A program made the position numbers and the translations under genes. From an uncultured Candidatus Saccharibacteria bacterium (lineage in GTDB: Bacteria; Patescibacteriota; Minisyncoccia; Phycocordibacterales; Phycocordibacteraceae): a DNA stretch of 64,000 nucleotides. Position 1 is the stretch's first letter. The number at the start of each line of letters is the position of its first letter. Below the pieces are notes generated by a model that saw only the letters and a list, made by a program, of their open reading frames with translations, searched no databases and was not told the DNA's origin. Location of the stretch: assembly GCA_964607655.1 (NCBI GenBank), contig CAZSKX010000001.1, positions 83,434 through 147,433 of the forward strand. Reading direction: 5' to 3'. Below are positions 1,253 to 55,890 of the stretch, piece after piece.

Positions 1253-2977
1253 CTAGTGGGTATTAGTGCGGAGCATGTCGCGCTCGATGTCGGCGAAGGT
1301 GCCGCCGACTTTCTTGCCTGGATTGAAAATATTTTGAGGATCGAAGATTTGCTTGGTGCGTTCGAAAAGGGCGACCATCTCGGGGCCGAAGAGCATCGGC
1401 AGATACGGGGTGCGGATGATGCCATCGTTGTGCTCACCGGTGGTCGTGCCGCCTTCTTTGATCACGAGCTCATAGACCTTTGGTGCGAGCTCGAGAATGA
1501 TCTTCCGATTCTCTTCTTTAGTTAGATCCATAAGAGGGATCAGGTGGAAGTTGCCGTTGCCGACGTGTCCCGCGATCGTGTAGATCATGTGGTCCTTATA
1601 CTGGTCGAGGAGCGCCGTGAGCTTCGGGAGAAATTCTGGATAGCACTGGGGAGGCACGACGAAGTCGTCGATAAAGGGTACCGGATAGAGGTCTTTCATA
1701 TTCTTACGCAGTAGAGAGAAGCTCTCGCGGCGCACGATCCAGTATTTCTCAGATTCCTTCTCGTCCTTCTCGATCTTACACTTCACGTCGAGGTCGTGGA
1801 GGGCGAGCTTGGCCTCGCCGACGCGGCGATCGGCAGCCTCGATCGTATCAGCAGAGAATTCTGCCATGAGAATCATCTCAGGCACGCCACCAAAGAGGAC
1901 CATGAGCGTCTCGGGGATAAACTCGACCCCGAGTCGTGCTGCCTTAGCCATGCCCATCTGCTCGAGCATCTTGGGGAGGAATTTTACCGCGAGCTCGAAG
2001 GTGTGTTTGTCGTAGCTCTCAAATGATTCGGGGTTGAAAGGGAGAATGCGCTTCACGATCTCAGGCAGCGTCTCAAGATCTTTTAGGAAGATGACGAGCA
2101 TCGCGCGATGCTCCTTAGGCTTCACGAGCTTAAGCTTCGCCTTGGTCCAGAGCGCGAGGGTGCCCTGCGAGCCGCAGATAAGCTTGGCGAGGTTAGTCGC
2201 CCCCGTCTTCTCATCGCGAATACTCCAGAGCGCATACCCAGCTGAATTTTTAGATACTTTTGGCTTGTGTGTAGCGATGAGCTTCGCGTTCTCGGTGAGG
2301 AGGGCGTCCATCTCGCGATAGATATGACCCTCCATCGTACGCAGCTTCTTCTTCTCCTCGACCTCTTCGGGCGAGGTGGGCTTAAAGGTCGCCATCGAGC
2401 CGTCAGAGAGGACGACCTCAACTTCTTCGACATAACGCTCAGTCTGGCCATACTCGAGCGTGCGTTCGCCTGCAGAATTGTTCGAGACGATGCCGCCCAT
2501 CGCACAGAGCTCGCGGCTCGCAGGGTAGGAGGGGAGTATGAGCCCTTTCTCGAGCGTCGCCTTCTCGAAATCACGGTAATACACGCCGGGCTCCGTAATC
2601 GCGTACCCATCACTTGGGGGTGAAACCCCCAAGTGGACCTCGCCCATGGTGTTCATGTGTTCTTTAAACGAGACCATGATGCTGGTGGTGAGCGATCCGC
2701 CGGACATACAGGTCCCTGCCGCACGCGCGGTGAGCGAGACGTCGGTGTCACAGCTCTTTAGGTGAGCCACTTCTTTCACCAAGATCTGGAGATCGTCAGC
2801 GTCCTTAGGCGACACGACGACGGTGGGCGTGCGGGTGAAGAGGGAAGCGTCGCGACTGGCCTTGGCGAGTGTTGCTGGGTCTTCGCGTACCTCGCCCCGG
2901 AGTGCTTTTTTCAGAATAGGTTTCCAGTCTGCGCAATCAGGCATTCTTTCAGTATACTTGGCATATCGATTAATCAT
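1253..2977 (-). CDS. FAD-linked oxidase (GlcD / D-lactate dehydrogenase / FAD-binding PCMH family). The true start is possibly the internal Met at 2944 (MPDCADW...), which follows a TATACT box.
   Basis: FAD-binding-4 N-terminal region and C-terminal FAD-oxidase motif GGTTTGEHNDGIIRTPYLP...IFDPQNIFNPGK. 574 aa. Contains the in-frame 25-nt palindromic element (HLGVSPPS). Confidence 0.8.
   Translation of the reverse strand: MINRYAKYTERMPDCADWKPILKKALRGEVREDPATLAKASRDASLFTRTPTVVVSPKDADDLQILVKEVAHLKSCDTDVSLTARAAGTCMSGGSLTTSIMVSFKEHMNTMGEVHLGVSPPSDGYAITEPGVYYRDFEKATLEKGLILPSYPASRELCAMGGIVSNNSAGERTLEYGQTERYVEEVEVVLSDGSMATFKPTSPEEVEEKKKLRTMEGHIYREMDALLTENAKLIATHKPKVSKNSAGYALWSIRDEKTGATNLAKLICGSQGTLALWTKAKLKLVKPKEHRAMLVIFLKDLETLPEIVKRILPFNPESFESYDKHTFELAVKFLPKMLEQMGMAKAARLGVEFIPETLMVLFGGVPEMILMAEFSADTIEAADRRVGEAKLALHDLDVKCKIEKDEKESEKYWIVRRESFSLLRKNMKDLYPVPFIDDFVVPPQCYPEFLPKLTALLDQYKDHMIYTIAGHVGNGNFHLIPLMDLTKEENRKIILELAPKVYELVIKEGGTTTGEHNDGIIRTPYLPMLFGPEMVALFERTKQIFDPQNIFNPGKKVGGTFADIERDMLRTNTH
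2611..2635. repeat. Copy 1 of a 24-25 nt perfect palindromic hairpin element (CACTTGGGGG-TGAAA-CCCCCAAGTG), in-frame inside the FAD oxidase CDS.
   Basis: 10-bp perfect stem with a 5-nt loop. Identical 24-mer recurs at 26551-26574 inside leuS. Confidence 0.85.
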
Positions 2978-4683: not shown

Positions 4684-4742
4684 ATTAAAAAACCGCCCCT
4701 CTGCCGCGAGGTGAAGGGGTTTCCTTCACCTCGCGGGGGCGG
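4684..4742 (-). terminator. Intrinsic terminator module A, read on the minus strand as hairpin + GGCGGTTTTTTAAT. Shares a 29-nt identical core with module B.
   Basis: 14-bp stem CCGCGAGGTGAAGG/CCTTCACCTCGCGG plus an outer CCGCCCC/GGGGCGG stem. T6 run on the minus strand immediately 3' of gene 4747-5349. Confidence 0.7.
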
Positions 4743-5444: not shown

Positions 5445-5501
5445 CATTAAAAAACCGCCCCTCTGCCGCGAGGTTGGAAGATTTTTCATCTTCCAACCTC
5501 G
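5445..5501 (-). terminator. Intrinsic terminator module B. Same 29-nt core as module A but a different 15-bp stem.
   Basis: Stem GCGAGGTTGGAAGAT/ATCTTCCAACCTCGC with loop TTTTC. Lies 3' of the minus-strand gene ending at 5526, followed on the minus strand by GGCGGTTTTTTAAT. Confidence 0.7.
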
Positions 5502-5525
5502 CCGAGGTAGTGGTTATGTCGGCTC

Positions 5526-5870: not shown

Positions 5871-7580
5871 ATGTACTCATTGTCAAGTAGTTTAGCCAAG
5901 GCCGTGATACACTTGGGATCTATGACACAGGGCGAGGCACTGACGATACTCAAGACGGGCGCCAACGTGTTTCTCACTGGCGAGCCGGGGAGCGGCAAGA
6001 CGCACACGATCAACGAGTTTGTCGCCTGGCTGCGCGCGAGCGGGGTCGAGCCCTCGATCACCGCGGCCACCGGTATCGCCGCGACGCACGTGGGCGGGAT
6101 GACGCTCCACTCCTGGAGCGGGATCGGGATCAATGAGTCGCTCTCGAGAAGCGAGGTGGATTTCATCGCGAGCAAAGAACGCATCGCCAAGCGGATCGCG
6201 AAAGCGAAAGTCTTGATAATCGAAGAAGTCTCGATGCTTGCAGCGCACACCTTCGAGATGGCAGATGCTGTCTGTAGGGAAGTGCGGCGAGTCGATGGGC
6301 CGTTTGGCGGGCTCACGGTTATTCTCGTGGGCGACTTCTTCCAGCTCCCGCCGGTGTCGCGAACGGGTGATGTGCAGTTTGCCTATGAGTCGCGCACCTG
6401 GCGCGACCTCCACCTCCTGACCTGCTATCTCACCGAACAGTTTCGACAGGACGATGCTGACTTTCTCGAGGTGCTCTCAGCGATCCGGCGAGGCGAGGTC
6501 GAAGAGCTCCACTTCGAGCATTTACAGGCACGTCAGGTCGGTGGCGAAGCGTTGCCAGAAGGCGCGCCGAAACTTTATTCCCATAATGCTGACGTTGATC
6601 GGCTGAACAACACCGAGCTCGCGAAGCTGCCGGGGAAAACGTACCCCTTTCGCATGGCGAGTAAGGGGAAGGACTCGCTCGTCGAAGGGCTGAAGCGCGG
6701 CTGTCTCTCACCCGAGAATCTCGAGCTTAAAGAAGGGGCGGTCGTGATGTTTACCAAGAATTCGCCGCAAGGGAAGTTTGTGAATGGGACGCTCGGCGTC
6801 GTCGAAGGGTGGGGAAGTGACGGATACCCCGTGGTGAAAACACGAGAAGGGACGAAGGTGACTGCCGAGCCGATGGAGTGGCAGCTCGAGGAACACGGTA
6901 AGGTGAAGGCGAGTGTCTCGCAGGTGCCGCTCCGGCTCGCGTACGCGATGACGGTACATAAGAGCCAGGGGATGAGTATGGACGCTGCGGTGATCGACCT
7001 CTCGAAGGCGTTTGAATACGGACAGGGGTACGTCGCGCTCTCGCGCGTGCGCCGCCTCGCCGGGGTGCACCTCCTGGGGATCAATCAGCGCGCGCTCGAG
7101 GTGCACCCCGAGATCCTCGAGAAGGACCAGGGATTCCGCGCCGCCTCAGAGGCGGCGCGCGAAGCCTTCGATGCGATGCCGCAGCCTGAAGTCGATGCGA
7201 TGCAGAAGAAGTTTGTAAAGGCGATGGGTGGCGCGTGGAGTACGGGTGCGATTGTGAAAAAGGGAAAGACGAAAAGCGCGGCTCTGCCGGGGCGTCTCGC
7301 GGAGACGCTTCAAGCAGTGAGAGACGGCTCGTCACTCAAGAGTGTTGCTAAAGAGCGTGGTCTCGCTGTCTCGACGGTCGTGACGCATCTCGAAGAGCTC
7401 GCCGAGCTCGGTAAGCTTACACGCGAAGATTTTATCCATCTGGTACCCACCGACTCTCTCGATGAGATCCATGAAGCGTTTAGAGAAGAGCAGAGCGATA
7501 AGCTCTCGCCAGTTTTTCATGCGCTGAAGGGTCGCTACTCGTTTGAAGTTCTTCGACTCGCGCGGCTTGCACGCTTGTAG
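5871..7580 (+). CDS. PIF1/RecD-family (AAA_30) ATP-dependent DNA helicase with a C-terminal helix-turn-helix region.
   Basis: Walker A LTGEPGSGKTHTI; PIF1-like motifs (LIIEEVSM, VGDFFQLPPV, MTVHKSQGMSMD...YVALSRV). C-terminal HTH-like SLKSVAKERGLAVSTVVTHLEEL. Confidence 0.8.
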   Translation: MYSLSSSLAKAVIHLGSMTQGEALTILKTGANVFLTGEPGSGKTHTINEFVAWLRASGVEPSITAATGIAATHVGGMTLHSWSGIGINESLSRSEVDFIASKERIAKRIAKAKVLIIEEVSMLAAHTFEMADAVCREVRRVDGPFGGLTVILVGDFFQLPPVSRTGDVQFAYESRTWRDLHLLTCYLTEQFRQDDADFLEVLSAIRRGEVEELHFEHLQARQVGGEALPEGAPKLYSHNADVDRLNNTELAKLPGKTYPFRMASKGKDSLVEGLKRGCLSPENLELKEGAVVMFTKNSPQGKFVNGTLGVVEGWGSDGYPVVKTREGTKVTAEPMEWQLEEHGKVKASVSQVPLRLAYAMTVHKSQGMSMDAAVIDLSKAFEYGQGYVALSRVRRLAGVHLLGINQRALEVHPEILEKDQGFRAASEAAREAFDAMPQPEVDAMQKKFVKAMGGAWSTGAIVKKGKTKSAALPGRLAETLQAVRDGSSLKSVAKERGLAVSTVVTHLEELAELGKLTREDFIHLVPTDSLDEIHEAFREEQSDKLSPVFHALKGRYSFEVLRLARLARL

Positions 7581-10397: not shown

Positions 10398-10832
10398 ATG
10401 AACCGCGGTATGACCATGGTCGAGATACTGGTGACGCTCGCGATCTTCGCGCTCATCGTCGCGCTCGGACTTTTTATGAGCTTCGAGGCCTACCGTGGCG
10501 CGACGCGCCGGAGCGAGCGCGACACGATCGTCAGCCTGCTTGAGCGCGCGCGTAGCCGCGCGATGGCGAATATCGACCAAAGCGCGTGGAGCGTCTGCTA
10601 CGACGCAGGGAACTACATCATCGCGAAAGGTGCCTCTTGTAGCGACGCGATCGCCCATGACCGCGTCGAAGCGAACGCGGGCGTTGCGGCAGCGTCAAGC
10701 TTCAGCTCAACGTTCCCAACGGTAGAGTTCGAGCAGCTCACGGGGAACACTACCGCCGAAACCATTACCGTGGTGCAGGACGGCAAGAACGCAGTGATAA
10801 CAACCAACCATGAAGGCCGCATCAACTGGTAA
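10398..10832 (+). CDS. Prepilin-type (class III signal) pseudopilin / minor pilin.
   Basis: N-terminus MNRG|MTMVEILVTLAIFALIV: Gly-1, hydrophobic +1, Glu+5, hydrophobic helix. Confidence 0.7.
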   Translation: MNRGMTMVEILVTLAIFALIVALGLFMSFEAYRGATRRSERDTIVSLLERARSRAMANIDQSAWSVCYDAGNYIIAKGASCSDAIAHDRVEANAGVAAASSFSSTFPTVEFEQLTGNTTAETITVVQDGKNAVITTNHEGRINW

Positions 10833-12330
10833 ATTCCATAGGGGGGTGAGTATCGTCGAGATCCTGATCGCGCTCGCGATCCTGACCCTCACTGTCTCGG
10901 CGGTGATTATGGTCGTCTTCGGTAATCAGTCCCTCGCTGTCGATACCCAGACGAATATCGAAGCGTTGGCGAAGGCGCAGTCAGAACTGGAAGAAATCCG
11001 AAAGACGGCCAAAGGCAACTTTGTGGATGCGGTAACGGTCCCAACTCACGACTGGACTCCGCTAGGAGGATTAACCTACACCGCTTCCACTTCCGTGCGT
11101 GATGTGAACAAATGTCTGAAGCAGGCAACCAGTACTGTTTCTTGGACGATGGGCGGGCGTCATCTTGACGTATCTCTCACGACGTTTCTTTCCGATGTCG
11201 AAGAGGCCCTTGCGCTTGGTGGTCATTGTGCCACACCCCCAAAGGGCAAGTGGCAGACATTGGCTTCTGTGAGTGGCGGCGACGGCAGTGTCCACGCCAC
11301 AGACGTGTACGCGAAAGACGGGTACGCATTCGTCTCGGCCTACTCAGTGGCGGCCGGACCGGCAAAGAAGCCCGACCTGCTTATTTATTCTTACGACCCA
11401 GGGCCACCCAAAAGTGTGAATGAACACGGGACTCTGGACACCGCCGATATTCCGGCGCTGAGTACAAGTAACGGACTCAATGATCTCGTGGTAGTGGGTG
11501 ATTACGTGTACGCCGCGAATAACCAGAAGAATCAGCAGTTAGTTATCATCGATGTTGCAGACGTCGAGGATCCTCAATTCGTCAGCTCGGTGAATCTACC
11601 GAATATTACTAGCGGTTTTACATGCAATAACCCAACCAACTGTTTGCCGGGTGCTCGTAGTATTTATTATTACGACGGTTATCTATATATAGGAACCGGG
11701 TATCTTAGTTTCGGAACAGCTACCGAGAACCACGAATTTTATGTGTACTGTATTTCAGACACCAGTGTCCCGCTGTGTGCCCCAACGACTCCGGTCTTTA
11801 TTGGCAGCGTAAACATAGATCACAACGTAAATGATATCGTGGTGCGGGACGGATTCGCATACCTGGCTACGTCTGATGATCTTGGGGAGCTGACTATCGT
11901 TGATCTTAGTGACCTTAGCGCGTCGCCAGTACTCGTTAACGCGCCTGGGGATGACAATCGACATGGACTCAGTTTGTACCTAATCGGTAAGAAGCTCTAT
12001 CTGGGACGAGTCGAGGGATCAGCGGTCAAGCCGAATTTTATAATCTATGACGTTACGACCGGGGGAAGCGTGTCGTCGTGCGGCTCATGCGCTAAGCATC
12101 TTTCGTCTGGGAATATAAATGCGATTACGGTTTTCGACGACACGGCGTTTTTAGTCACAGAAGAAAAGCTAGAGATCCTCAACGTACAGAACTCATCAGA
12201 TATAAAAAACATTGCGTCATTGGCGTTACCAAAAGAGGGTACGGGCATTGATTATGATAGCGATTATCTCTACGTGCCGATAGTGGATCAGGGCGCGTAC
12301 CTCTTAAACATCTACTATTCAGGACCCTAG
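10810..12330 (+). CDS. Large pilin-like protein: prepilin N-terminal helix fused to an LVIVD-repeat beta-propeller. Candidate pilus tip/adhesin subunit.
   Basis: KFHRG|VSIVEILIALAILTL class III signal, then repeated LVIVD-type segments (LVVVGDYVYAANN...QLVIIDVADVEDP; IVVRDGFAYLATS...LTIVDLSDL; LEILNVQNSSD). Confidence 0.65.
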   Translation: MKAASTGKFHRGVSIVEILIALAILTLTVSAVIMVVFGNQSLAVDTQTNIEALAKAQSELEEIRKTAKGNFVDAVTVPTHDWTPLGGLTYTASTSVRDVNKCLKQATSTVSWTMGGRHLDVSLTTFLSDVEEALALGGHCATPPKGKWQTLASVSGGDGSVHATDVYAKDGYAFVSAYSVAAGPAKKPDLLIYSYDPGPPKSVNEHGTLDTADIPALSTSNGLNDLVVVGDYVYAANNQKNQQLVIIDVADVEDPQFVSSVNLPNITSGFTCNNPTNCLPGARSIYYYDGYLYIGTGYLSFGTATENHEFYVYCISDTSVPLCAPTTPVFIGSVNIDHNVNDIVVRDGFAYLATSDDLGELTIVDLSDLSASPVLVNAPGDDNRHGLSLYLIGKKLYLGRVEGSAVKPNFIIYDVTTGGSVSSCGSCAKHLSSGNINAITVFDDTAFLVTEEKLEILNVQNSSDIKNIASLALPKEGTGIDYDSDYLYVPIVDQGAYLLNIYYSGP

Positions 12331-13226: not shown

Positions 13227-13679
13227 ATGAAGAAATTTAACAAAGCAGGAGGCTTTACGCTCATTGAGCTTCTCGTGGTGATCGGCATCATCGCGATCCT
13301 CGCTGCTATCGTTATCGTAGCTATCAATCCAGCTAAGCGCTTTGCTGACGCTCGTCAGAGCCAGCGCGCAGCTAACATTGAATCGATCTTAAGTGCTCTG
13401 CAGCAGAACATGGTAGACAACAACGGTATTCTTACTGGATCTGGATGCGACTCGATTCCGTCCGCAACCTCGACCATTGCTACCGGCCAGATCGACCTCG
13501 CGTCATGCTTGGCGGATTATCTAGCTATATTGCCTCTAAATCCGAGCACAACTACGGCTAAGTGGGAGAATAGCGGTGACTACTACACTGGATATCAGAT
13601 AAGAAAGTATGGCACCAATCAGATTGCAGTGATTGCTCCCGCAGAAGGAGTCGATCCGCAGATTATGGTCATTCGCTAA
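13227..13679 (+). CDS. pilA: Major type IV pilin (PilA-like).
   Basis: MKKFNKAGG|FTLIELLVVIGIIAILAAIVIVAI canonical class III signal with Glu+5. 150 aa. Strong terminator downstream. Confidence 0.8.
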   Translation: MKKFNKAGGFTLIELLVVIGIIAILAAIVIVAINPAKRFADARQSQRAANIESILSALQQNMVDNNGILTGSGCDSIPSATSTIATGQIDLASCLADYLAILPLNPSTTTAKWENSGDYYTGYQIRKYGTNQIAVIAPAEGVDPQIMVIR

Positions 13680-13702
13680 AGAATCCAATTCTTTAAATCA
13701 AA

Positions 13703-13727
13703 AACGCCCCGGCCGGGGCGTTTTTGA
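13703..13727 (+). terminator. Rho-independent terminator after the major pilin gene.
   Basis: CGCCCCGGCCGGGGCG followed by TTTTTGATTTT. Confidence 0.8.
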
Positions 13728-13852
13728 TTTTCATAAACTTCATCCACGCTTCAGTACACAAAGACTTTAATTAAGAAGCTCCTGACGTGGCGCAGCTCTA
13801 CGAGCTGGGCGAGGGTCATTAGCATTTTATTCGATCTTAAATTCTTATTATT

Positions 13853-19765: not shown

Positions 19766-20319
19766 TTACCCGAGCACCTCGACGAGCTCGCTGAGGATCG
19801 CGTCAGACGCGTCATCCGGACGAGCCCACACGAAGGCCTCGTTGAGCCTGGACAGCATCATGTCCAGGGAGTCGCGGTCGCCCTTCCCGCGCATCGCGGG
19901 GCGGCGCCACGCGACGAGCTGGAAGAGTCCCTGGACCGTGTCCTTGGTGAAGGTGACCTTGCGGCCCTTCACCGTGAGCTGCTGCTCGAGGATCGAGGAG
20001 AGCCGCGCCCAGAGGTCCTTCCCGGCGAGTTCTCGTGCGCGAGGCACGAGAACTCGCCGGGAAGGGCCATCATCAGCGGGAACACCGTGAGCAGGTGTTC
20101 CTTCGACTCCGCCGCGAAGCGGTTGCGCTCCGCGAGCGTGCGGTCGGGGCTCGGCGCCGCCGGGGCGGGGGCCTTCTGCCGGGAGGTCTTCTCCTGGCGG
20201 CTGACGCTCTCCTCGCGGTGGCTGTCGCGGCCCTTCTTCTGGTCGCGGCCCGGCTTCTCGTTGCGGTTCTGGTTGCGGTCGTTCTTCTGGTTCCTCGCCA
20301 TTGGGTTTCTCCTGCCCAT
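19766..20319 (-). pseudogene. Frameshifted gene with extreme GC3 codon usage. The N-terminal basic segment (frame of ORF 19969..20319) and the C-terminal segment (frame of ORF 19766..20380) join at a 22-bp perfect palindrome.
   Basis: Both halves show strong third-position G/C periodicity in different frames. Inverted repeat CCTTCCCGGCGAGTTCTCGTGC-GCGAG-GCACGAGAACTCGCCGGGAAGG at about 20019-20067. An arm length of 22 gives a +1 shift. Confidence 0.35.
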
Positions 20320-24194: not shown

Positions 24195-27035
24195 GTGGCC
24201 TTCGATCATAAAAAAATTGAAAAAGAAGTACAGGCTAAGTGGGAGAGCCTGAATCTCTACGAGACCGATCTCGCGGACGACACAAAAGAACCGTACTATC
24301 TGCTCTGCGAGTTCCCGTATCCGTCGGGCGACCTGCACATCGGCCATTGGTACGCCTTCTCGGTGACCGATATCTACGCGCGTATCCTCCGCCTGCGCGG
24401 TAAGAATGTGCTCTTTCCGATAGGATTCGACGCGTTTGGGCTACCGGCAGAAAATGCTGCGATCAAGCACGGCCTCGATCCGAAGGAATGGACTTACGGC
24501 AATATCGAGCGCATGCGCGGCCAGCTCAAGAGCATGGGTGCGTCTTTCGACTGGAGTAAAGAGGTCGCTGCCTGCGACCCGAACTACTACCACTGGACGC
24601 AGGGGCTCTTTACCAAGCTCTTCGAGCACGGGCTCGCCGAGCATCGCGAGGCGAGTGTTAAGTGGTGCCCGAAGGACCTCACCGTGCTCGCGAACGAACA
24701 GATCATCGACGGCACGTGTGAACGTTGCGGAACCGAGGTAGAAGAGAAGCGTCTCACCCAGTGGTTCTTTAAGATTACGCAGTACGCCGAGCGCCTGCTC
24801 GAAGGGCTCGATACCCTCCCGTGGCGCGAAGAGATCAAGGAGGCACAGCGCGCATGGATCGGTAAGAGCGAAGGGGCTTATCTCGACTTCGCGGTCGCGG
24901 GTCGCGAGGAGAAGATTCGCGTCTTCACGACGCGGCCAGACACTCTTTTTGGATCCACGTACGTGGTGCTCGCGCCTGAACACTCTCTCGTACAGACTCT
25001 CGGCGATATTGTTTCTAATAAAGAAGAGGTCGACGCATATGTTAAAGCGACCGCGGCCAAGACCGAGCGCGAGCGCAGTGAGAATAAGGAGAAGACCGGC
25101 GTGTGTCTCGAGGGAGTGAAAGCGATTAACCCTGCGACTAAGGAGGAGATTCCAGTATACGTCGCCGACTATGTGCTCGGCTCTTACGGCACGGGTGCAG
25201 TGATGGCTGTCCCAGCCCATGACGAGCGCGACTTTGAATTCGCACAGAAATACAATCTTCCAATTAAGGATGTGGTGATGCCGGTGCTGCCTGATGTTTC
25301 TAATCCCCATCAGCCTGGCAAGGAGGTGGTATTCCGTAAAGCGACAATCAACGTCGTGTATGATCCAAAGAAGAAAAGATATCTCATTTTGAAATGGAAG
25401 AAGCAGCCGTGGATCACCTATGTGACGGGCGGTGTGGAGGAAGGGGAAGACCTCGTCGAGTCGGCAAAGCGAGAAATCGCAGAAGAGACGGGGTATACCG
25501 ATGTGAAGTTTGTGCGCAAGCTCGGCGGGGATGCGCAGGCAGAGTTCTACGCTGCTCATAAGGGTGTTAATCGGGTTGCGCGTAACTCCATGCTGTACTT
25601 TGAGCTACAGAGTGATCAGCGAGCTGACGTTGCCGAAGACGAGCAGGCACAACACGAAGTGGCGTGGGTAAGTAAAGACAAACTGCTCAAAACAAAGATC
25701 CAGCACTCAGAAGCGCAGCTGATACTCGATCGTCTCTTCGGCGGAATGGGTGCGCACACAGGGCCCGGGATACTTATTAGCTCCGGTGAGTTTGATGGCC
25801 GGTGGAACGAAGAGGCGAAGTGGGACATTGTTGCCTCTGCGGGAGGGGAGAAGGCCACGCAATATCGCCTGCGAGATTGGAGTATCTCGCGCCAGCGCTA
25901 CTGGGGCTGCCCGATCCCGGTCGTCTATGACCCAGAAGGGAAGCCGCATGCGATCCCAGCTGAGCATCTCCCGTGGCTCCTGCCGACCGATGTTGATTTC
26001 AAACCGACCGGCAACGCCTCGCCACTCGCGAGCTCGCAGGAGCTGAAAGATCGGGTGACGAGAATCTTTGGCGAGGGGTGGGCACCTGAGTTCGATACGC
26101 TCGACACCTTCGTCGACTCCTCGTGGTACTTCACGCGTTACCTCGATCCTAAGAATGATCACCAGTTCTCCGATCCTGCCCTGATGAAGAAGTGGTTGCC
26201 GGTGAATCGCTATTCGGGCGGGAGCGAGCACACGACCATGCACCTGCTCTACGCGCGCTTCTTCACCAAGGCGCTACATGATCTCGCACTCGTCGACTTT
26301 GACGAGCCATTTATCGAGCGCTTCAACCGCGGACTTATCCTCGGCCCCGACGGAGCGAAGATGAGCAAGTCGAAGGGGAACGTCATCAATCCCGACGAGT
26401 TTGTGCAGAAGTTTGGTGCTGATGCAGTGCGCATCTACCTGGCCTTTATCGGGCCATACAACGAACCGGGGAGCTATCCGTGGAATCTCGACGGGGTTAC
26501 CTCGATGCGTAAGTTCCTCGATCGCATAGAGCGCGTCGCCGATCGGGTCAACTTGGGGGTGAAACCCCCAAGTGAGGAGGAGGTGCTTAAGGGGGTGCTT
26601 GCAGTGGCGAGCCAGAAAATCTCAGTGGACGGTGATCGGTTTAAGTTCAACACAGCCGTGTCGGCACTGATGATCGCTCTTAACGAATTTGAATCTGCAG
26701 AGAGCGTCTCGATTGATGCGATGAAGACGTATCTCATTCTGCTTGCGCCATTCGCGCCGCATCTTGCTGAGCACCTCTGGGAGAAGCTTGGCGGGGAAGG
26801 CAGTGTGCACCAGCAGCCCTGGCCCGATCTTGCGGTCGAAGTAGCCGCTGAAGTAGAGGTGGTGGTGCAGGTTTCCGGTAAAAAGCGTGGGTCAATCACG
26901 CTGTCACTCGAGGCGTCAGAAGAGGAGGCTCTAGCTAGGGCGAAAGCCATACCTTCAGTCGCCACAGCCCTCGGGGACTCCGAGCCCAAACGGGTGGTGT
27001 ACGTGCCGGGCAAGATCCTTAACTTGGTCGTTTAG
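24195..27035 (+). CDS. leuS: Leucyl-tRNA synthetase carrying an inserted Nudix hydrolase domain (about residues 362-525) after the CP1 editing domain. Also contains copy 2 of the 24-nt palindromic element.
   Basis: HIGH (DLHIGHWYAF), CP1 (TRPDTLFGSTYVVLAPEH...GTGAVMAVPAHDERDFEFA), KMSKS, anticodon-binding and C-terminal domains. Nudix box GGVEEGEDLVESAKREIAEETGY matches GX5EX7REUXEEXGU exactly. Confidence 0.9.
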   Translation: MAFDHKKIEKEVQAKWESLNLYETDLADDTKEPYYLLCEFPYPSGDLHIGHWYAFSVTDIYARILRLRGKNVLFPIGFDAFGLPAENAAIKHGLDPKEWTYGNIERMRGQLKSMGASFDWSKEVAACDPNYYHWTQGLFTKLFEHGLAEHREASVKWCPKDLTVLANEQIIDGTCERCGTEVEEKRLTQWFFKITQYAERLLEGLDTLPWREEIKEAQRAWIGKSEGAYLDFAVAGREEKIRVFTTRPDTLFGSTYVVLAPEHSLVQTLGDIVSNKEEVDAYVKATAAKTERERSENKEKTGVCLEGVKAINPATKEEIPVYVADYVLGSYGTGAVMAVPAHDERDFEFAQKYNLPIKDVVMPVLPDVSNPHQPGKEVVFRKATINVVYDPKKKRYLILKWKKQPWITYVTGGVEEGEDLVESAKREIAEETGYTDVKFVRKLGGDAQAEFYAAHKGVNRVARNSMLYFELQSDQRADVAEDEQAQHEVAWVSKDKLLKTKIQHSEAQLILDRLFGGMGAHTGPGILISSGEFDGRWNEEAKWDIVASAGGEKATQYRLRDWSISRQRYWGCPIPVVYDPEGKPHAIPAEHLPWLLPTDVDFKPTGNASPLASSQELKDRVTRIFGEGWAPEFDTLDTFVDSSWYFTRYLDPKNDHQFSDPALMKKWLPVNRYSGGSEHTTMHLLYARFFTKALHDLALVDFDEPFIERFNRGLILGPDGAKMSKSKGNVINPDEFVQKFGADAVRIYLAFIGPYNEPGSYPWNLDGVTSMRKFLDRIERVADRVNLGVKPPSEEEVLKGVLAVASQKISVDGDRFKFNTAVSALMIALNEFESAESVSIDAMKTYLILLAPFAPHLAEHLWEKLGGEGSVHQQPWPDLAVEVAAEVEVVVQVSGKKRGSITLSLEASEEEALARAKAIPSVATALGDSEPKRVVYVPGKILNLVV
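26551..26574. repeat. Copy 2 of the 24-nt palindromic hairpin element (ACTTGGGGGTGAAACCCCCAAGTG), in-frame in leuS (encodes NLGVKPPSE).
   Basis: Identical to 2612-2635. Confidence 0.85.
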
Positions 27036-30900: not shown

Positions 30901-30940
30901 GTACTAGAAACACCCGCGGCTCCGAAGGAGCCGCGGGTGT

Positions 30941-32329
30941 TTGCTATACTGGGTGCATTATATGGCTTCGCTCTTTGAAAGCGTCGACAAGAAAGTTGAA
31001 AAGCTGAGTGACAATTTCAGCATTAAGTTTGAAGCACGGCCGGTGTTCGTGGCGGTGCTGGTGGTCATCCTCGCGTTGAGCATGGTGTTCCCGGAGGTGG
31101 CTTCAGTCGCCATCAAGGGAGCGCTTTTCCTTGCGCCGGTATGGCTTCCTTTTCTTGTAGTCGGAGGAGCGATCGAGATGTGGTACATCCTTAAACAATC
31201 CGAATTTCTTTCCAATCAGAAATATATCCTGCTTGAGATTAAGCCTCCGCGTGAGCTCGTGAAGACGCCGCTCGCGATGGAGGCATTTATCTCGACGCTG
31301 CACCTTACCGGAGGCGAGAGTAACTGGTGGCAGAGGATTACGGGCGGCCTGCGCCCACACTGGTCGCTCGAGATAGTCTCCTTTGAAGGACAAGTACACT
31401 TCTTTATCTGGGGCAGGGCAAACTTCCGTCGACTGGTGGAAAGCCAGCTCTATGCGCAGTACCCTGGAACTCAAGTGGTAGAGGCGATCGATTATACGCG
31501 GACGATCTCAGCAACACCGGAAGAATGGTTTGTCTGGGGCGTTGATTTCAAAGCCCTCGATGCCGATCCCTTACCGATCAAAACGTACGTCGAGTACGGG
31601 CTCGAGAAGACTCAGAAAGAGCCCGAGCAGATCGACCCGCTTGCGAACCTCATCGAGTTTATGGGCTCGATCGGGAAAGGAGAGTATCTCTGGCTGCAGT
31701 ACGTTATCCGTGCTCACAAAGGGGAAAAGTATCATAAGCTCAACAAAGAAGGTAAGCCTTTTACCTGGGCTGACGAAGGGAAGGAGTTGATAGAAAAAAT
31801 TCGTGCTAAAACGCGCGATCCGTATCTCGATCCGGCGACGGGAGAGGAGCGGCCCGGCTTCCCGAACCCTACTAAAGGACAGTCTGAGAAAATTGCTGCG
31901 ATTGAACGTAACACAGGAAAACTCGCGTTCGACGTCGGGATTCGTGCGGTGTACATCACCAAGCACGACAAAGTGAACGGAGGTACGATCACCCACCTGA
32001 TTGCTCTCTTTAAACCCTTCACCAATACCGGCTGGAACGGTCTCGACTCCACAGGATGGCTAAAAAACTTTAACGATTACCCGTGGGATGCCTTTTGGAC
32101 GAACCGAAAGAAGGAGCACTATCGGCGGGAGCTTGTCGAGGCGTATCGCCGACGTCAGTACTTCTACCACCCTCGCTTCGAAGGGGCGCTAAAAGCAAGT
32201 AAGACTATGGTGATGAGTACGGAGGAGCTCGCAACGATATATCACATCCCGTCACGCTCGGTCGAGACGCCAGGACTCGGTCGTATCGCCTCGACGACAA
32301 GCGAAGCACCGGTTAATCTTCCTATATAA
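30941..32329 (+). CDS. Hypothetical membrane-anchored protein (462 aa).
   Basis: Long intact ORF with two N-terminal TM helices, immediately downstream of the HTH protein. No recognisable domain. Confidence 0.45.
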   Translation: MLYWVHYMASLFESVDKKVEKLSDNFSIKFEARPVFVAVLVVILALSMVFPEVASVAIKGALFLAPVWLPFLVVGGAIEMWYILKQSEFLSNQKYILLEIKPPRELVKTPLAMEAFISTLHLTGGESNWWQRITGGLRPHWSLEIVSFEGQVHFFIWGRANFRRLVESQLYAQYPGTQVVEAIDYTRTISATPEEWFVWGVDFKALDADPLPIKTYVEYGLEKTQKEPEQIDPLANLIEFMGSIGKGEYLWLQYVIRAHKGEKYHKLNKEGKPFTWADEGKELIEKIRAKTRDPYLDPATGEERPGFPNPTKGQSEKIAAIERNTGKLAFDVGIRAVYITKHDKVNGGTITHLIALFKPFTNTGWNGLDSTGWLKNFNDYPWDAFWTNRKKEHYRRELVEAYRRRQYFYHPRFEGALKASKTMVMSTEELATIYHIPSRSVETPGLGRIASTTSEAPVNLPI

Positions 32330-55828: not shown

Positions 55829-55850
55829 GAAGCCTTGAACGGCCCCAACC

Positions 55851-55890
55851 GGGCCCGCGTACCTCACAGGTACGCGGGCCCGTTCTCTTT
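55851..55890 (+). terminator. Rho-independent terminator.
   Basis: GGGCCCGCGTACC-TCACA-GGTACGCGGGCCC followed by GTTCTCTTTT. Confidence 0.75.

What the first reader, a model, noticed from the sequence alone, without database searches (positions are those of the whole stretch)
2611..2635. A 24-25 nt perfect palindromic hairpin element inserted in-frame in two unrelated essential-type CDSs (FAD oxidase and leuS)
The exact 24-mer ACTTGGGGGTGAAACCCCCAAGTG occurs at 2612-2635, inside the minus-strand FAD oxidase gene, and again at 26551-26574, inside plus-strand leuS. It is a 10-bp perfect stem with a TGAAA loop. Flanking sequence is unrelated, so this is not a gene duplication. In both hosts it stays in frame and adds a near-identical octapeptide (HLGVSPPS versus NLGVKPPSE). 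It is read from opposite strands, which works only because the element is palindromic. In the oxidase the peptide falls where homologous FAD oxidases have no residues (between MNxxxEV and the xxTxEPGV strand). This looks like a miniature in-frame palindromic insertion element, comparable in concept to the much longer Rickettsia palindromic elements. I found no further copies in this window.
Basis: partly seen in the sequence, partly recalled or inferred. Interest (0 to 1): 0.8.

Follow-up and report, generated by a model that had tools for sequence, protein, structure and literature searches.

The report
REP-type hairpin repeats inside two genes
The two identical 24-base hairpins are copies of a small palindromic repeat that is common in ultra-small (CPR/Patescibacteria) bacteria and is tied to a REP-type tyrosine transposase; here both copies landed in frame in tolerant loops of two enzymes, which is a known kind of event seen in a new lineage.

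Summary
ACTTGGGGGTGAAACCCCCAAGTG occurs exactly twice, at 2612-2635 and 26551-26574, against 0 expected. Both copies are in frame, in an FAD oxidoreductase (minus strand) and in LeuRS (plus strand).

It is an insertion. The closest oxidase orthologs (91-93% identity) lack it, a net difference of 21 nt, and most LeuRS orthologs lack it.

It is not private to this window. The 21-nt core occurs in more than 120 metagenome contigs and in several Patescibacteria MAGs, and in no viral contig. The consensus is YCA-CTTGGGGGTGAAACCCCCAAG-TGR. Copies are strongly depleted from long ORFs (32% against 73% for random positions).

In every full-length case examined, the hairpin lies 7-27 bp from each contig-covered end of a 221-aa Y1/HUH transposase gene. 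That protein's best structural match is the E. coli REP-associated tyrosine transposase bound to its REP hairpin (4ER8).

The window therefore holds two intragenic singlets of a REP/RAYT-type system. Intragenic REPs, including some in tRNA synthetase genes, are already published for other phyla. I rate this a new member of a known kind.

Side results are more unusual:
- The transposase gene carries two in-frame copies of its own hairpin.
- Each genome has its own compensated hairpin variant.
- A different palindrome sits at the same oxidase site in another lineage.

The window holds no transposase gene.

The parts
2611..2635 (+). REP-type hairpin, copy 1: CACTTGGGGGTGAAACCCCCAAGTG. Stem of 11 bp with a GAA loop, and the TGAAA loop reads on the + strand. 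It is read on the minus strand as HLGVSPPS, residues 115-122 of the oxidase.
   Evidence: Exact match. Absent from orthologs of 91-93% identity, a net +21 nt. Matches the family consensus from 168 copies.
26551..26574 (+). REP-type hairpin, copy 2: ACTTGGGGGTGAAACCCCCAAGTG. Read on the plus strand as NLGVKPPS, residues 786-793 of LeuRS.
   Evidence: Exact match. Most of 120 LeuRS homologs lack it at this variable inter-helix linker, while some carry single, double or decayed copies there. Alignment to T. thermophilus LeuRS 1H3N places it in a variable-length linker.
1253..2977 (-). Host gene 1: FAD-binding oxidoreductase (FAD_binding_4 plus FAD-oxidase_C). The likely true start is the ATG at 2944.
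   Evidence: ORF. Homologs and their Pfam domains. Start position inferred from orthologs.
24195..27035 (+). Host gene 2: leucyl-tRNA synthetase carrying an internal NUDIX domain.
   Evidence: ORF. A 100% identical protein, P0121, lies on a 464,554-bp NCBI contig, and the homolog table gives the Pfam domains. PDB match to 1H3N.

Best explanation
The two hairpins are singlet copies of a REP-type (repetitive palindromic) element family found in Patescibacteria/CPR bacteria.

Shown by the evidence here:
- In related genomes the same hairpin brackets a RAYT-like Y1 (HUH) tyrosine transposase gene, and it also sits inside that gene.
- The hairpin is dispersed through those genomes, mostly between genes.
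- Both window copies are insertions relative to orthologs. Both lie in loops that vary in length among homologs.

Inferred, not shown:
- By analogy with E. coli TnpA-REP and IS200/IS605 TnpA, the transposase binds the folded hairpin in single-stranded DNA and cuts and rejoins it. Copies would spread this way.
- Most insertions into genes are lethal and are lost. A copy survives only if it lands in a tolerant surface loop and keeps the reading frame.
- This element is pre-adapted to survive. The one measured insertion adds 21 nt, a multiple of three. Five of its six frames are open. Its symmetry gives nearly the same peptide in either orientation.
- The window's copies were placed by a transposase encoded elsewhere in the genome, or by one that has since been lost.
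- Neither copy is followed by a T-run, so they are not expected to act as terminators inside these genes.
For: Family and consensus:
- It occurs in Kaiserbacteria, Minisyncoccia and other Patescibacteria MAGs and in no viral contig.
- The consensus from 168 copies is YCA-core-TGR, with otherwise unconserved flanks.
- Copies are depleted from long ORFs: 32% against 73% for random positions, p about 1e-30.

Transposase link:
- L145 2025..2690 matches Pfam Y1_Tnp above the gathering score.
- Homologs occur in at least 20 hairpin-bearing loci.
- In 9 of 9 full-length main-clade genes the hairpin lies 7-27 bp from each gene end that the contig covers, with 1-2 more copies inside.
- H83, H85 (the HUH motif) and Y143 are invariant.
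- The AlphaFold model's best PDB match is 4er8_A, the RAYT bound to a REP hairpin, at E 3.7e-5, followed by IS608 and ISDra2 TnpA.
- JGI names several homologs 'REP element-mobilizing transposase RayT'.

Co-evolution:
- One genome's variant ACTTGGGTGT-GAA-ACACCCAAGT carries a compensated base pair. It is shared by transposase-flanking, internal and dispersed copies.
- The two internal motifs often carry the same variant within a protein.

Insertion status:
- Close oxidase orthologs have an empty site.
- 42 of 90 parsed orthologs are empty and 12 are element-like.
- The LeuRS site behaves the same way.
- A RAYT and a REP-decorated oxidase lie on one 62.7-kb contig.

Other evidence:
- Other hosts of in-frame copies are PheRS beta, M17 peptidase, a class-V aminotransferase, TatD, an MBL hydrolase and RACo. 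All five open frames are used.
- Intragenic REPs, including some in tRNA synthetases, are documented in other phyla (PMC3733652).
Against: - No RAYT homolog lies in the 64-kb window. The rest of the source genome could not be retrieved.
- The window has only two copies, both intragenic. High copy number in this genome is therefore not shown.
- The element lacks the GTAG or CGTC tag of the described REP superfamilies.
- The NCBIfam RAYT equivalog model scores far below its cut-off, 23 against 80 bits.
- Sequence searches of the PDB did not reach 4ER8, so the link to RAYT is structural and contextual.
- No conserved target sequence and no orientation bias against GC skew was seen (25:16).
- Perfect copies at the same codon position in orthologs that are only 74% identical at the DNA level are not explained by a simple single insertion followed by neutral decay.
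- Transposition has not been demonstrated.
Confidence: 0.8

Rival explanations
1. The hairpin is a vertically inherited functional motif, for example a binding site in DNA or mRNA for a host factor or for the RAYT acting as a regulator. Selection keeps it at fixed positions, and it is no longer, or never was, mobile.
For: - The stems are 100% identical between the window and L242 at the same codon, while third positions are 51% identical.
- Hairpins inside the RAYT gene stay perfect while the protein diverges to about 60% identity.
- Some variants are compensated.
- The RAYT sits next to the rpsL-rpsG-fusA genes in two genomes, which suggests a domesticated, vertically inherited gene.
Against: - The closest orthologs lack the hairpin.
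- It occurs in many unrelated genes, in all open frames, and mostly between genes.
- Copies at the same site differ in loop orientation.
- Many variant copies have uncompensated mismatches: 71 one-sided against 46 compensated, and most of the compensated ones are at the outermost pair.
Confidence: 0.1
2. The palindromes arise locally, without a transposase. Template switching or snap-back synthesis at fragile, tolerant sites would create them, and shared sequence would reflect gene conversion between copies.
For: - The double copies in L243 leuS and L244 oxidase are exact inverted duplicates of an already mutated copy, giving 47-nt perfect palindromes.
- AT-rich contigs hold nested perfect palindromes of up to 28 extra bp.
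- A different palindrome, ATGTAGGACGT-ACC-ACGTCCTACAT, sits at the same oxidase site in L246.
- Loop flips (E to F) occur at fixed RAYT positions.
Against: - Local synthesis cannot explain an identical 21-27-nt consensus in hundreds of unrelated sites and several classes of bacteria.
- It also cannot explain the strict bracketing of a Y1 transposase gene.
- Local synthesis probably acts in addition to transposition, not instead of it.
Confidence: 0.07
3. The hairpins are inverted pairs of a DNA-uptake sequence, as in Neisseria and Haemophilus. That would fit the competence and pilus genes of CPR bacteria.
For: - Some copies form terminator-like hairpins with flanking T/A runs (L131, L165, L166).
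- The window encodes type IV pilin-like proteins (family D1).
Against: - The half-site ACTTGGGGGT never occurs alone in the window. There are 4 exact hits, all inside the two hairpins, and the one-mismatch hits are at chance level.
- Density is 2 per 64 kb, not about 1 per kb.
- Half-sites come in equal paired numbers in the related loci.
Confidence: 0.02
4. The hairpin is an assembly or adapter artefact.
For: None found.
Against: - The same element appears in independent JGI, ENA, NCBI and Logan assemblies.
- It is in frame and is conserved at orthologous positions.
Confidence: 0.01

Closest known systems
REP / RAYT systems ('REPtrons'; E. coli TnpA-REP, PDB 4ER8; Nunvar 2010, Ton-Hoang 2012, Messing 2012, Bertels & Rainey 2011)
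   Same: - A short GC-rich palindromic hairpin that is dispersed and mostly extragenic.
- The same hairpin flanks a Y1 HUH transposase gene on both sides.
- The transposase fold is closest to 4ER8.
- Each genome has its own hairpin variant, matching the copies around its transposase gene.
   Different: - There is no GTAG or CGTC tag, and the element is fully symmetric apart from the 3-nt loop.
- It occurs in CPR/Patescibacteria, for which the searched literature has no REP/RAYT report.
- The transposase ORF itself carries two in-frame copies.
- The sequence is far from the NCBIfam RAYT model.
- The window copies are singlets with no RAYT nearby.
Intragenic REPs (Di Nocera et al. 2013, PMC3733652)
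   Same: - Single or dimeric REPs inside ORFs of known proteins, including tRNA synthetases.
- The encoded extra residues are tolerated.
- Occasional same-site occupancy in orthologs (the Xanthomonas recB example).
   Different: - Those are GTAG- or CGTC-tagged families in Proteobacteria, Opitutus and Rickettsia.
- This family has a different sequence and a different lineage.
Rickettsia palindromic elements (RPE)
   Same: Palindromic repeats inserted in frame into genes that remain functional, in a small genome.
   Different: [quoted passage not shown] My own knowledge, not checked here, is that RPEs are about 100-150 bp.
- This element is 24-27 nt.
- No sequence relationship was tested or is claimed.
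IS200/IS605 insertion sequences
   Same: A Y1 HUH transposase that recognises DNA hairpins. The fold matches IS608 and ISDra2 TnpA.
   Different: - An IS has distinct left-end and right-end hairpins and moves as a whole unit.
- Here one short hairpin is dispersed on its own.

Membership tests
REP/RAYT system | Short (20-40 nt) GC-rich palindromic stem-loop | tested here: met
   The hairpin is 23-25 nt with a 9-11 bp perfect stem, and folds at about -19 to -21 kcal/mol.
REP/RAYT system | Many dispersed copies, mostly extragenic | tested here: inconclusive
   Met in related contigs: up to 5 copies per 2.7 kb, and 32% against 73% in long ORFs. The window has only 2 copies, both intragenic. The rest of the source genome was not retrievable.
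REP/RAYT system | Y1 transposase gene flanked by the same hairpins | tested here: met
   In 9 of 9 full-length main-clade genes in related loci the hairpin lies 7-27 bp from each gene end that the contig covers. None was found in the window.
REP/RAYT system | HUH motif, catalytic Tyr and RAYT-like fold | tested here: met
   H83, H85 and Y143 are invariant. Pfam Y1_Tnp scores 28.6 bits against a cut-off of 23. The best Foldseek match is 4er8_A at E 3.7e-5. However, the NCBIfam REP_Tyr_transpos model scores 23 bits against a cut-off of 80.
REP/RAYT system | Conserved GTAG or CGTC tetranucleotide at one end | tested here: not met
   The consensus flanks are symmetric, YCA...TGR, with no GTAG or CGTC.
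REP/RAYT system | Cleavage or mobilisation of the hairpin by the transposase | not testable with these tools
   This needs biochemistry or population data.
REPIN (inverted REP doublet) | Two REPs in inverted orientation acting as one unit | tested here: not met
   The window copies are singlets. Inverted doublets do exist in the orthologous genes of L243 and L244.
Rickettsia palindromic elements | Long palindromic repeat belonging to the RPE sequence families | tested here: not met
   The conserved element is only about 27 nt, far shorter than the long RPE-1-type insertions. The resemblance is functional only.
DNA uptake sequence | Single short motif over-represented genome-wide, also outside pairs | tested here: not met
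   The half-site occurs only inside the two hairpins.
MITE | Terminal inverted repeats with target-site duplication, 70-300 bp | tested here: not met
   There are no conserved flanks or direct duplications around the copies, and the conserved length is about 27 nt.

The most novel reading that the evidence does not exclude
The hairpins are not passive relics. The RAYT would keep a set of 'landing pads' occupied and uniform, including two inside its own ORF and fixed loops of conserved enzymes such as LeuRS, PheRS and the oxidase. It would do so by repeated site-directed re-insertion, exchange or loop flipping.

This would explain four observations:
- Perfect copies in either orientation at identical codons in diverged orthologs.
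- Each genome having its own compensated variant.
- Different palindromes occupying the same site.
- A transposase whose own coding sequence and mRNA carry its recognition hairpins, which could allow autoregulation.
Probability: 0.2. Interest if true: 0.7.

Novelty: new member of a known kind. Interest (0 to 1): 0.45.

Why it matters
- It extends REP/RAYT-type systems to the Candidate Phyla Radiation. The searched literature has no report of them there.
- It shows that in these gene-dense genomes roughly a quarter to a third of copies lie inside long ORFs, a share that includes the copies inside the transposase gene itself. Those copies decorate core enzymes such as aminoacyl-tRNA synthetases with hairpin-encoded loops.
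- For annotation, it explains recurrent LGV[KS]PPS, LGGETPK and TWGFHPQV peptides in CPR proteins, and the short contigs that break at these repeats.
- The transposase gene carries its own hairpins in frame. Several lineages show occupancy of the same site. Both offer a tractable system for studying how REP populations and their transposase co-evolve.

Tried and rejected
- **DNA-uptake sequence:** rejected. No lone half-sites occur.
- **Strand bias of the loop against GC skew,** as expected for lagging-strand ssDNA targeting: not significant at 25:16.
- **Rfam:** no family matches in the window.
- **Viral contigs:** no copy.
- **PDB sequence and profile searches with the transposase:** only marginal ISDra2 hits at E about 0.25. 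The fold search was needed.
- **Retrieving the source contig through the 100% identical LeuRS:** failed. Neither a genome-wide copy number nor a RAYT in the source genome could be checked.
- **A third intragenic perfect palindrome in the window,** CGCGCCGCCTCAGAGGCGGCGCG at 7137-7159 in a PIF1-type helicase: conserved as FRAASEAA in orthologs with no indel, so it is not an insertion.
- **The window's other perfect hairpins,** about 20 against about 1 expected: unique sequences that mostly lie near gene ends and look like terminators, not members of this family.
- **A conserved target sequence or exact insertion boundaries:** could not be defined from the one clean filled/empty pair.
- **The syntenic RAYT site next to rpsL:** the window lacks that operon, so this could not be checked.
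- **The first genome-collection scan:** the pattern was too loose, so most of its 120 loci are chance hits.

Full report
**Observation.** The 24-mer ACTTGGGGGTGAAACCCCCAAGTG is present exactly at 2612-2635 and 26551-26574. Dinucleotide-preserving shuffles gave no match. Neither a relaxed hairpin pattern nor searches at up to 4 mismatches found a third copy in the window.

The first copy lies in ORF 1253..2977 on the minus strand, an FAD_binding_4/FAD-oxidase_C oxidoreductase. The second lies in ORF 24195..27035 on the plus strand, LeuRS. Translation gives ..GEV-HLGVSPPS-DGY.. and ..DRV-NLGVKPPS-EEE...

Both copies have the TGAAA loop on the + strand. The two genes therefore read the element in opposite orientations, which works because the stem is a perfect palindrome. 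As RNA, either strand folds at about -19 to -21 kcal/mol.

**It is an insertion.** The three closest oxidase homologs (91-93% identity) read ..GEV-G[SN]DY... At the DNA level, the window has GAG GTC CAC TTG GGG GTT TCA CCC CCA AGT GAT GGG TAC. The ortholog on L241 has GAG GTA GGC AAC GAC TAT, a net difference of 21 nt.

Of 90 oxidase homologs that could be parsed at this site, 42 have the short 'empty' form. Twelve carry an LGV[SK]PPS-like peptide, three of them doubled. The rest carry other inserts of 5-14 residues.

A solved glycolate oxidase (9QGZ) has a gap at this point, in the turn before the ..T.EPGV strand.

In LeuRS, most of 120 homologs have a short linker here. A minority carry single, double or decayed versions such as NLGVKHPSNLGVSLPS, HLAVRPPSE, HLGAKHPSE and NLRGSPPSE. 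The T. thermophilus enzyme (1H3N) aligns with gaps and a different length at this point in the C-terminal anticodon-binding region.

**It is a widespread repeat family.**
- An over-loose scan of one genome per species returned mostly chance hits. The exact core with the same loop appeared only in Patescibacteria MAGs: three contigs of one Kaiserbacteria MAG, a Minisyncoccia MAG with two copies, and others.
Many are groundwater assemblies, and some carry up to five copies in 2.7 kb.
- Viral contigs had none.
- Across 168 copies the consensus is YCA-CTTGGGGGTGAAACCCCCAAG-TGR, with symmetric flanks and no other conserved sequence.
- The flanks often extend the palindrome with sequence specific to that copy. 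AT-rich contigs hold nested arrays of CACTTGGGGGT units.
- The half-site never occurs alone in the window, which argues against an uptake-signal reading.
- Copies are strongly depleted from long ORFs. Only 32% lie in stop-free frames of 150 or more codons, against 73% of random positions in the same loci (chi-square p about 1e-30).
- Intragenic copies use all five open frames: LGGETPK, LGGFTPK, xLGVKPPS, xLGVSPPS and TWGFHPQV.
- Pfam identifies the other hosts of in-frame copies as PheRS beta, an M17 peptidase, a class-V aminotransferase, TatD, an MBL-fold hydrolase and RACo.

**Link to a transposase.**
- In L145 four copies lie within 750 bp. Two flank a 221-aa ORF and two lie inside it in frame.
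- That protein matches Pfam Y1_Tnp above the gathering score. It matches the NCBIfam RAYT model only weakly.
- Homologs occur in at least 20 of the hairpin-bearing loci but not in the window.
- In all nine full-length members of the main clade, the hairpin lies 7-27 bp from each gene end that the contig covers, with one or two more copies inside.
- A more distant paralogous clade (33-37% identity) is not bracketed by the hairpin.
- The alignment shows an invariant HUH motif (H83, H85) and an invariant Tyr143.
- An AlphaFold model has mean pLDDT 68.5 and pTM 0.72. The two hairpin-encoded segments are low-confidence loops.
- The model's best PDB match is 4er8_A, the E. coli REP-associated tyrosine transposase bound to a REP hairpin (E 3.7e-5). 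IS608, ISDra2 and IS200 transposases follow.
- The protein family is large: 7101 hits at E of 1e-5 or better. JGI names several of them 'REP element-mobilizing transposase RayT'.

**Co-evolution of hairpin and transposase.**
- 99 of the 120 closest homologs carry two LGGETPK-like motifs at fixed positions. Within a protein the two motifs often carry the same variant, for example LGGSTAK twice or LGGPTAK twice.
- In one genome the gene-flanking copies, one internal copy and a dispersed copy all read ACTTGGGTGT-GAA-ACACCCAAGT. This is a compensated change in the stem.
- A RAYT homolog (P0257) and an oxidase with a doubled element (P0023) lie on the same 62.7-kb contig.
- In two genomes the RAYT lies next to the rpsL-rpsG-fusA genes, which fits vertical inheritance.

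**What remains unexplained.**
- The oxidase of L242 is 74% identical in DNA to the window gene and 51% identical at third codon positions. It carries the element at the same codon with stems 100% identical, but its loop is in the other orientation and has one change.
- The doubled copies in L243 (leuS) and L244 (oxidase) are exact inverted duplicates of an already mutated copy. Each forms a 47-nt perfect palindrome.
- Another oxidase lineage has a different perfect palindrome at exactly this site: ATGTAGGACGT-ACC-ACGTCCTACAT, which contains GTAG.
- These facts suggest recurrent targeting or exchange at a few permissive sites, plus local palindrome growth. I could not separate those processes from selection on the hairpin.
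- Variant copies show both compensated and uncompensated changes.
- No loop-orientation bias against GC skew was seen.

**Comparison with known systems.**
- The anatomy is that of a REP/RAYT 'REPtron'. Di Nocera et al. 2013 (PMC3733652) describe intragenic REPs, single or dimeric, in several species, including in tRNA synthetase genes.
- This family differs in four ways. It lacks the GTAG or CGTC tag. It occurs in CPR bacteria, for which full-text searches found no REP/RAYT report. Its transposase is distant in sequence from curated RAYT models. Its transposase ORF carries its own hairpins.
- Rickettsia RPEs are an analogy only.

**Verdict.**
- The element is best filed as a new member of the REP/RAYT kind. 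The window shows two in-frame intragenic singlets.
- Two points are not shown: that the source genome has a RAYT or many copies, and that the transposase moves the hairpin.

Noticed in passing
L145 2214-2234 and 2493-2513; also P0241-P0360: The RAYT-like transposase ORF carries two in-frame copies of its own hairpin, read as LGGETPK at about residues 60 and 153. 99 of 120 homologs have both, and the two often carry the same variant within a protein. Occasional E-to-F changes correspond to a flipped loop. I found no mention of REPs inside a RAYT ORF in the passages I read.
   Followed up: partly
L246 6300-6326 (oxidase ortholog P0036): A different perfect palindrome, ATGTAGGACGT-ACC-ACGTCCTACAT, contains GTAG and encodes NVGRTTSYM. 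It sits at exactly the oxidase site occupied by the element in the window. At least 9 orthologs share this peptide. Whether it is a repeat family is untested, since only one copy occurs among the fetched loci.
   Followed up: partly
L243 12378-12424 (leuS) and L244 8872-8918 (oxidase): The doubled elements are exact inverted duplicates of an already mutated copy. Each forms a 47-nt perfect palindrome that stays in frame (16 residues). This indicates local palindrome growth rather than a second independent insertion.
   Followed up: partly
L231, L126, L215, L223, L154 and other AT-rich (30-38% GC) metagenome contigs: These contigs hold nested perfect palindromes built from tandem CACTTGGGGGT units, with up to 28 bp of extra stem. 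A recurrent outer palindrome, TATGGACATCACATTAT, surrounds the core in several contigs (L179, L191, L218, L147).
   Followed up: no
L203 about 2200-2490: An unannotated ORF with no Pfam match contains four tandem repeats of about 28 residues. Each includes the hairpin read as TWGFHPQVN, so a hairpin-containing segment has been amplified inside a gene.
   Followed up: no
window 25428-25496 (inside leuS 24195-27035): LeuRS carries an internal NUDIX domain, with the Nudix box GGVEEGEDLVESAKREIAEETGY and Pfam family PF00293 in the homolog table. Nearly all close CPR homologs share it, and some also have an alpha/beta-hydrolase domain.
   Followed up: no
window 4684-4712 and 5446-5474: An exact 29-nt repeat, ATTAAAAAACCGCCCCTCTGCCGCGAGGT, forms the shared arm of two long hairpins (4704-4736 and 5468-5502) whose tips differ. 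Each is preceded by an A-run. They look like minus-strand terminators downstream of two small genes.
   Followed up: partly
window 7137-7159: A perfect 10-bp-stem palindrome, CGCGCCGCCTCAGAGGCGGCGCG, lies in frame in a PIF1-type helicase and encodes RAASEAAR. Orthologs conserve it without an indel, so it is not an inserted element.
   Followed up: yes
window 20017-20065, 13695-13730, 30908-30942, 55850-55882 and others: The window has about 20 unique perfect hairpins with stems of 9-22 bp, against about 1 expected from shuffles. Most lie at gene ends and look like terminators. The 22-bp stem at 20017-20065 is the longest.
   Followed up: partly
L052 1722-2384 and L245 10001-10666: In two different genomes the hairpin-flanked RAYT gene lies next to the rpsL-rpsG-fusA genes, which suggests a fixed, vertically inherited locus. 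The window does not contain that operon.
   Followed up: partly
window 10411-10463, 10847-10899, 13255-13307: Three related segments encode a hydrophobic N-terminal helix of the type IV pilin kind (direct-repeat family D1). A syntenic relative (L241) carries T2SSE, T2SSF and N_methyl genes.
   Followed up: no
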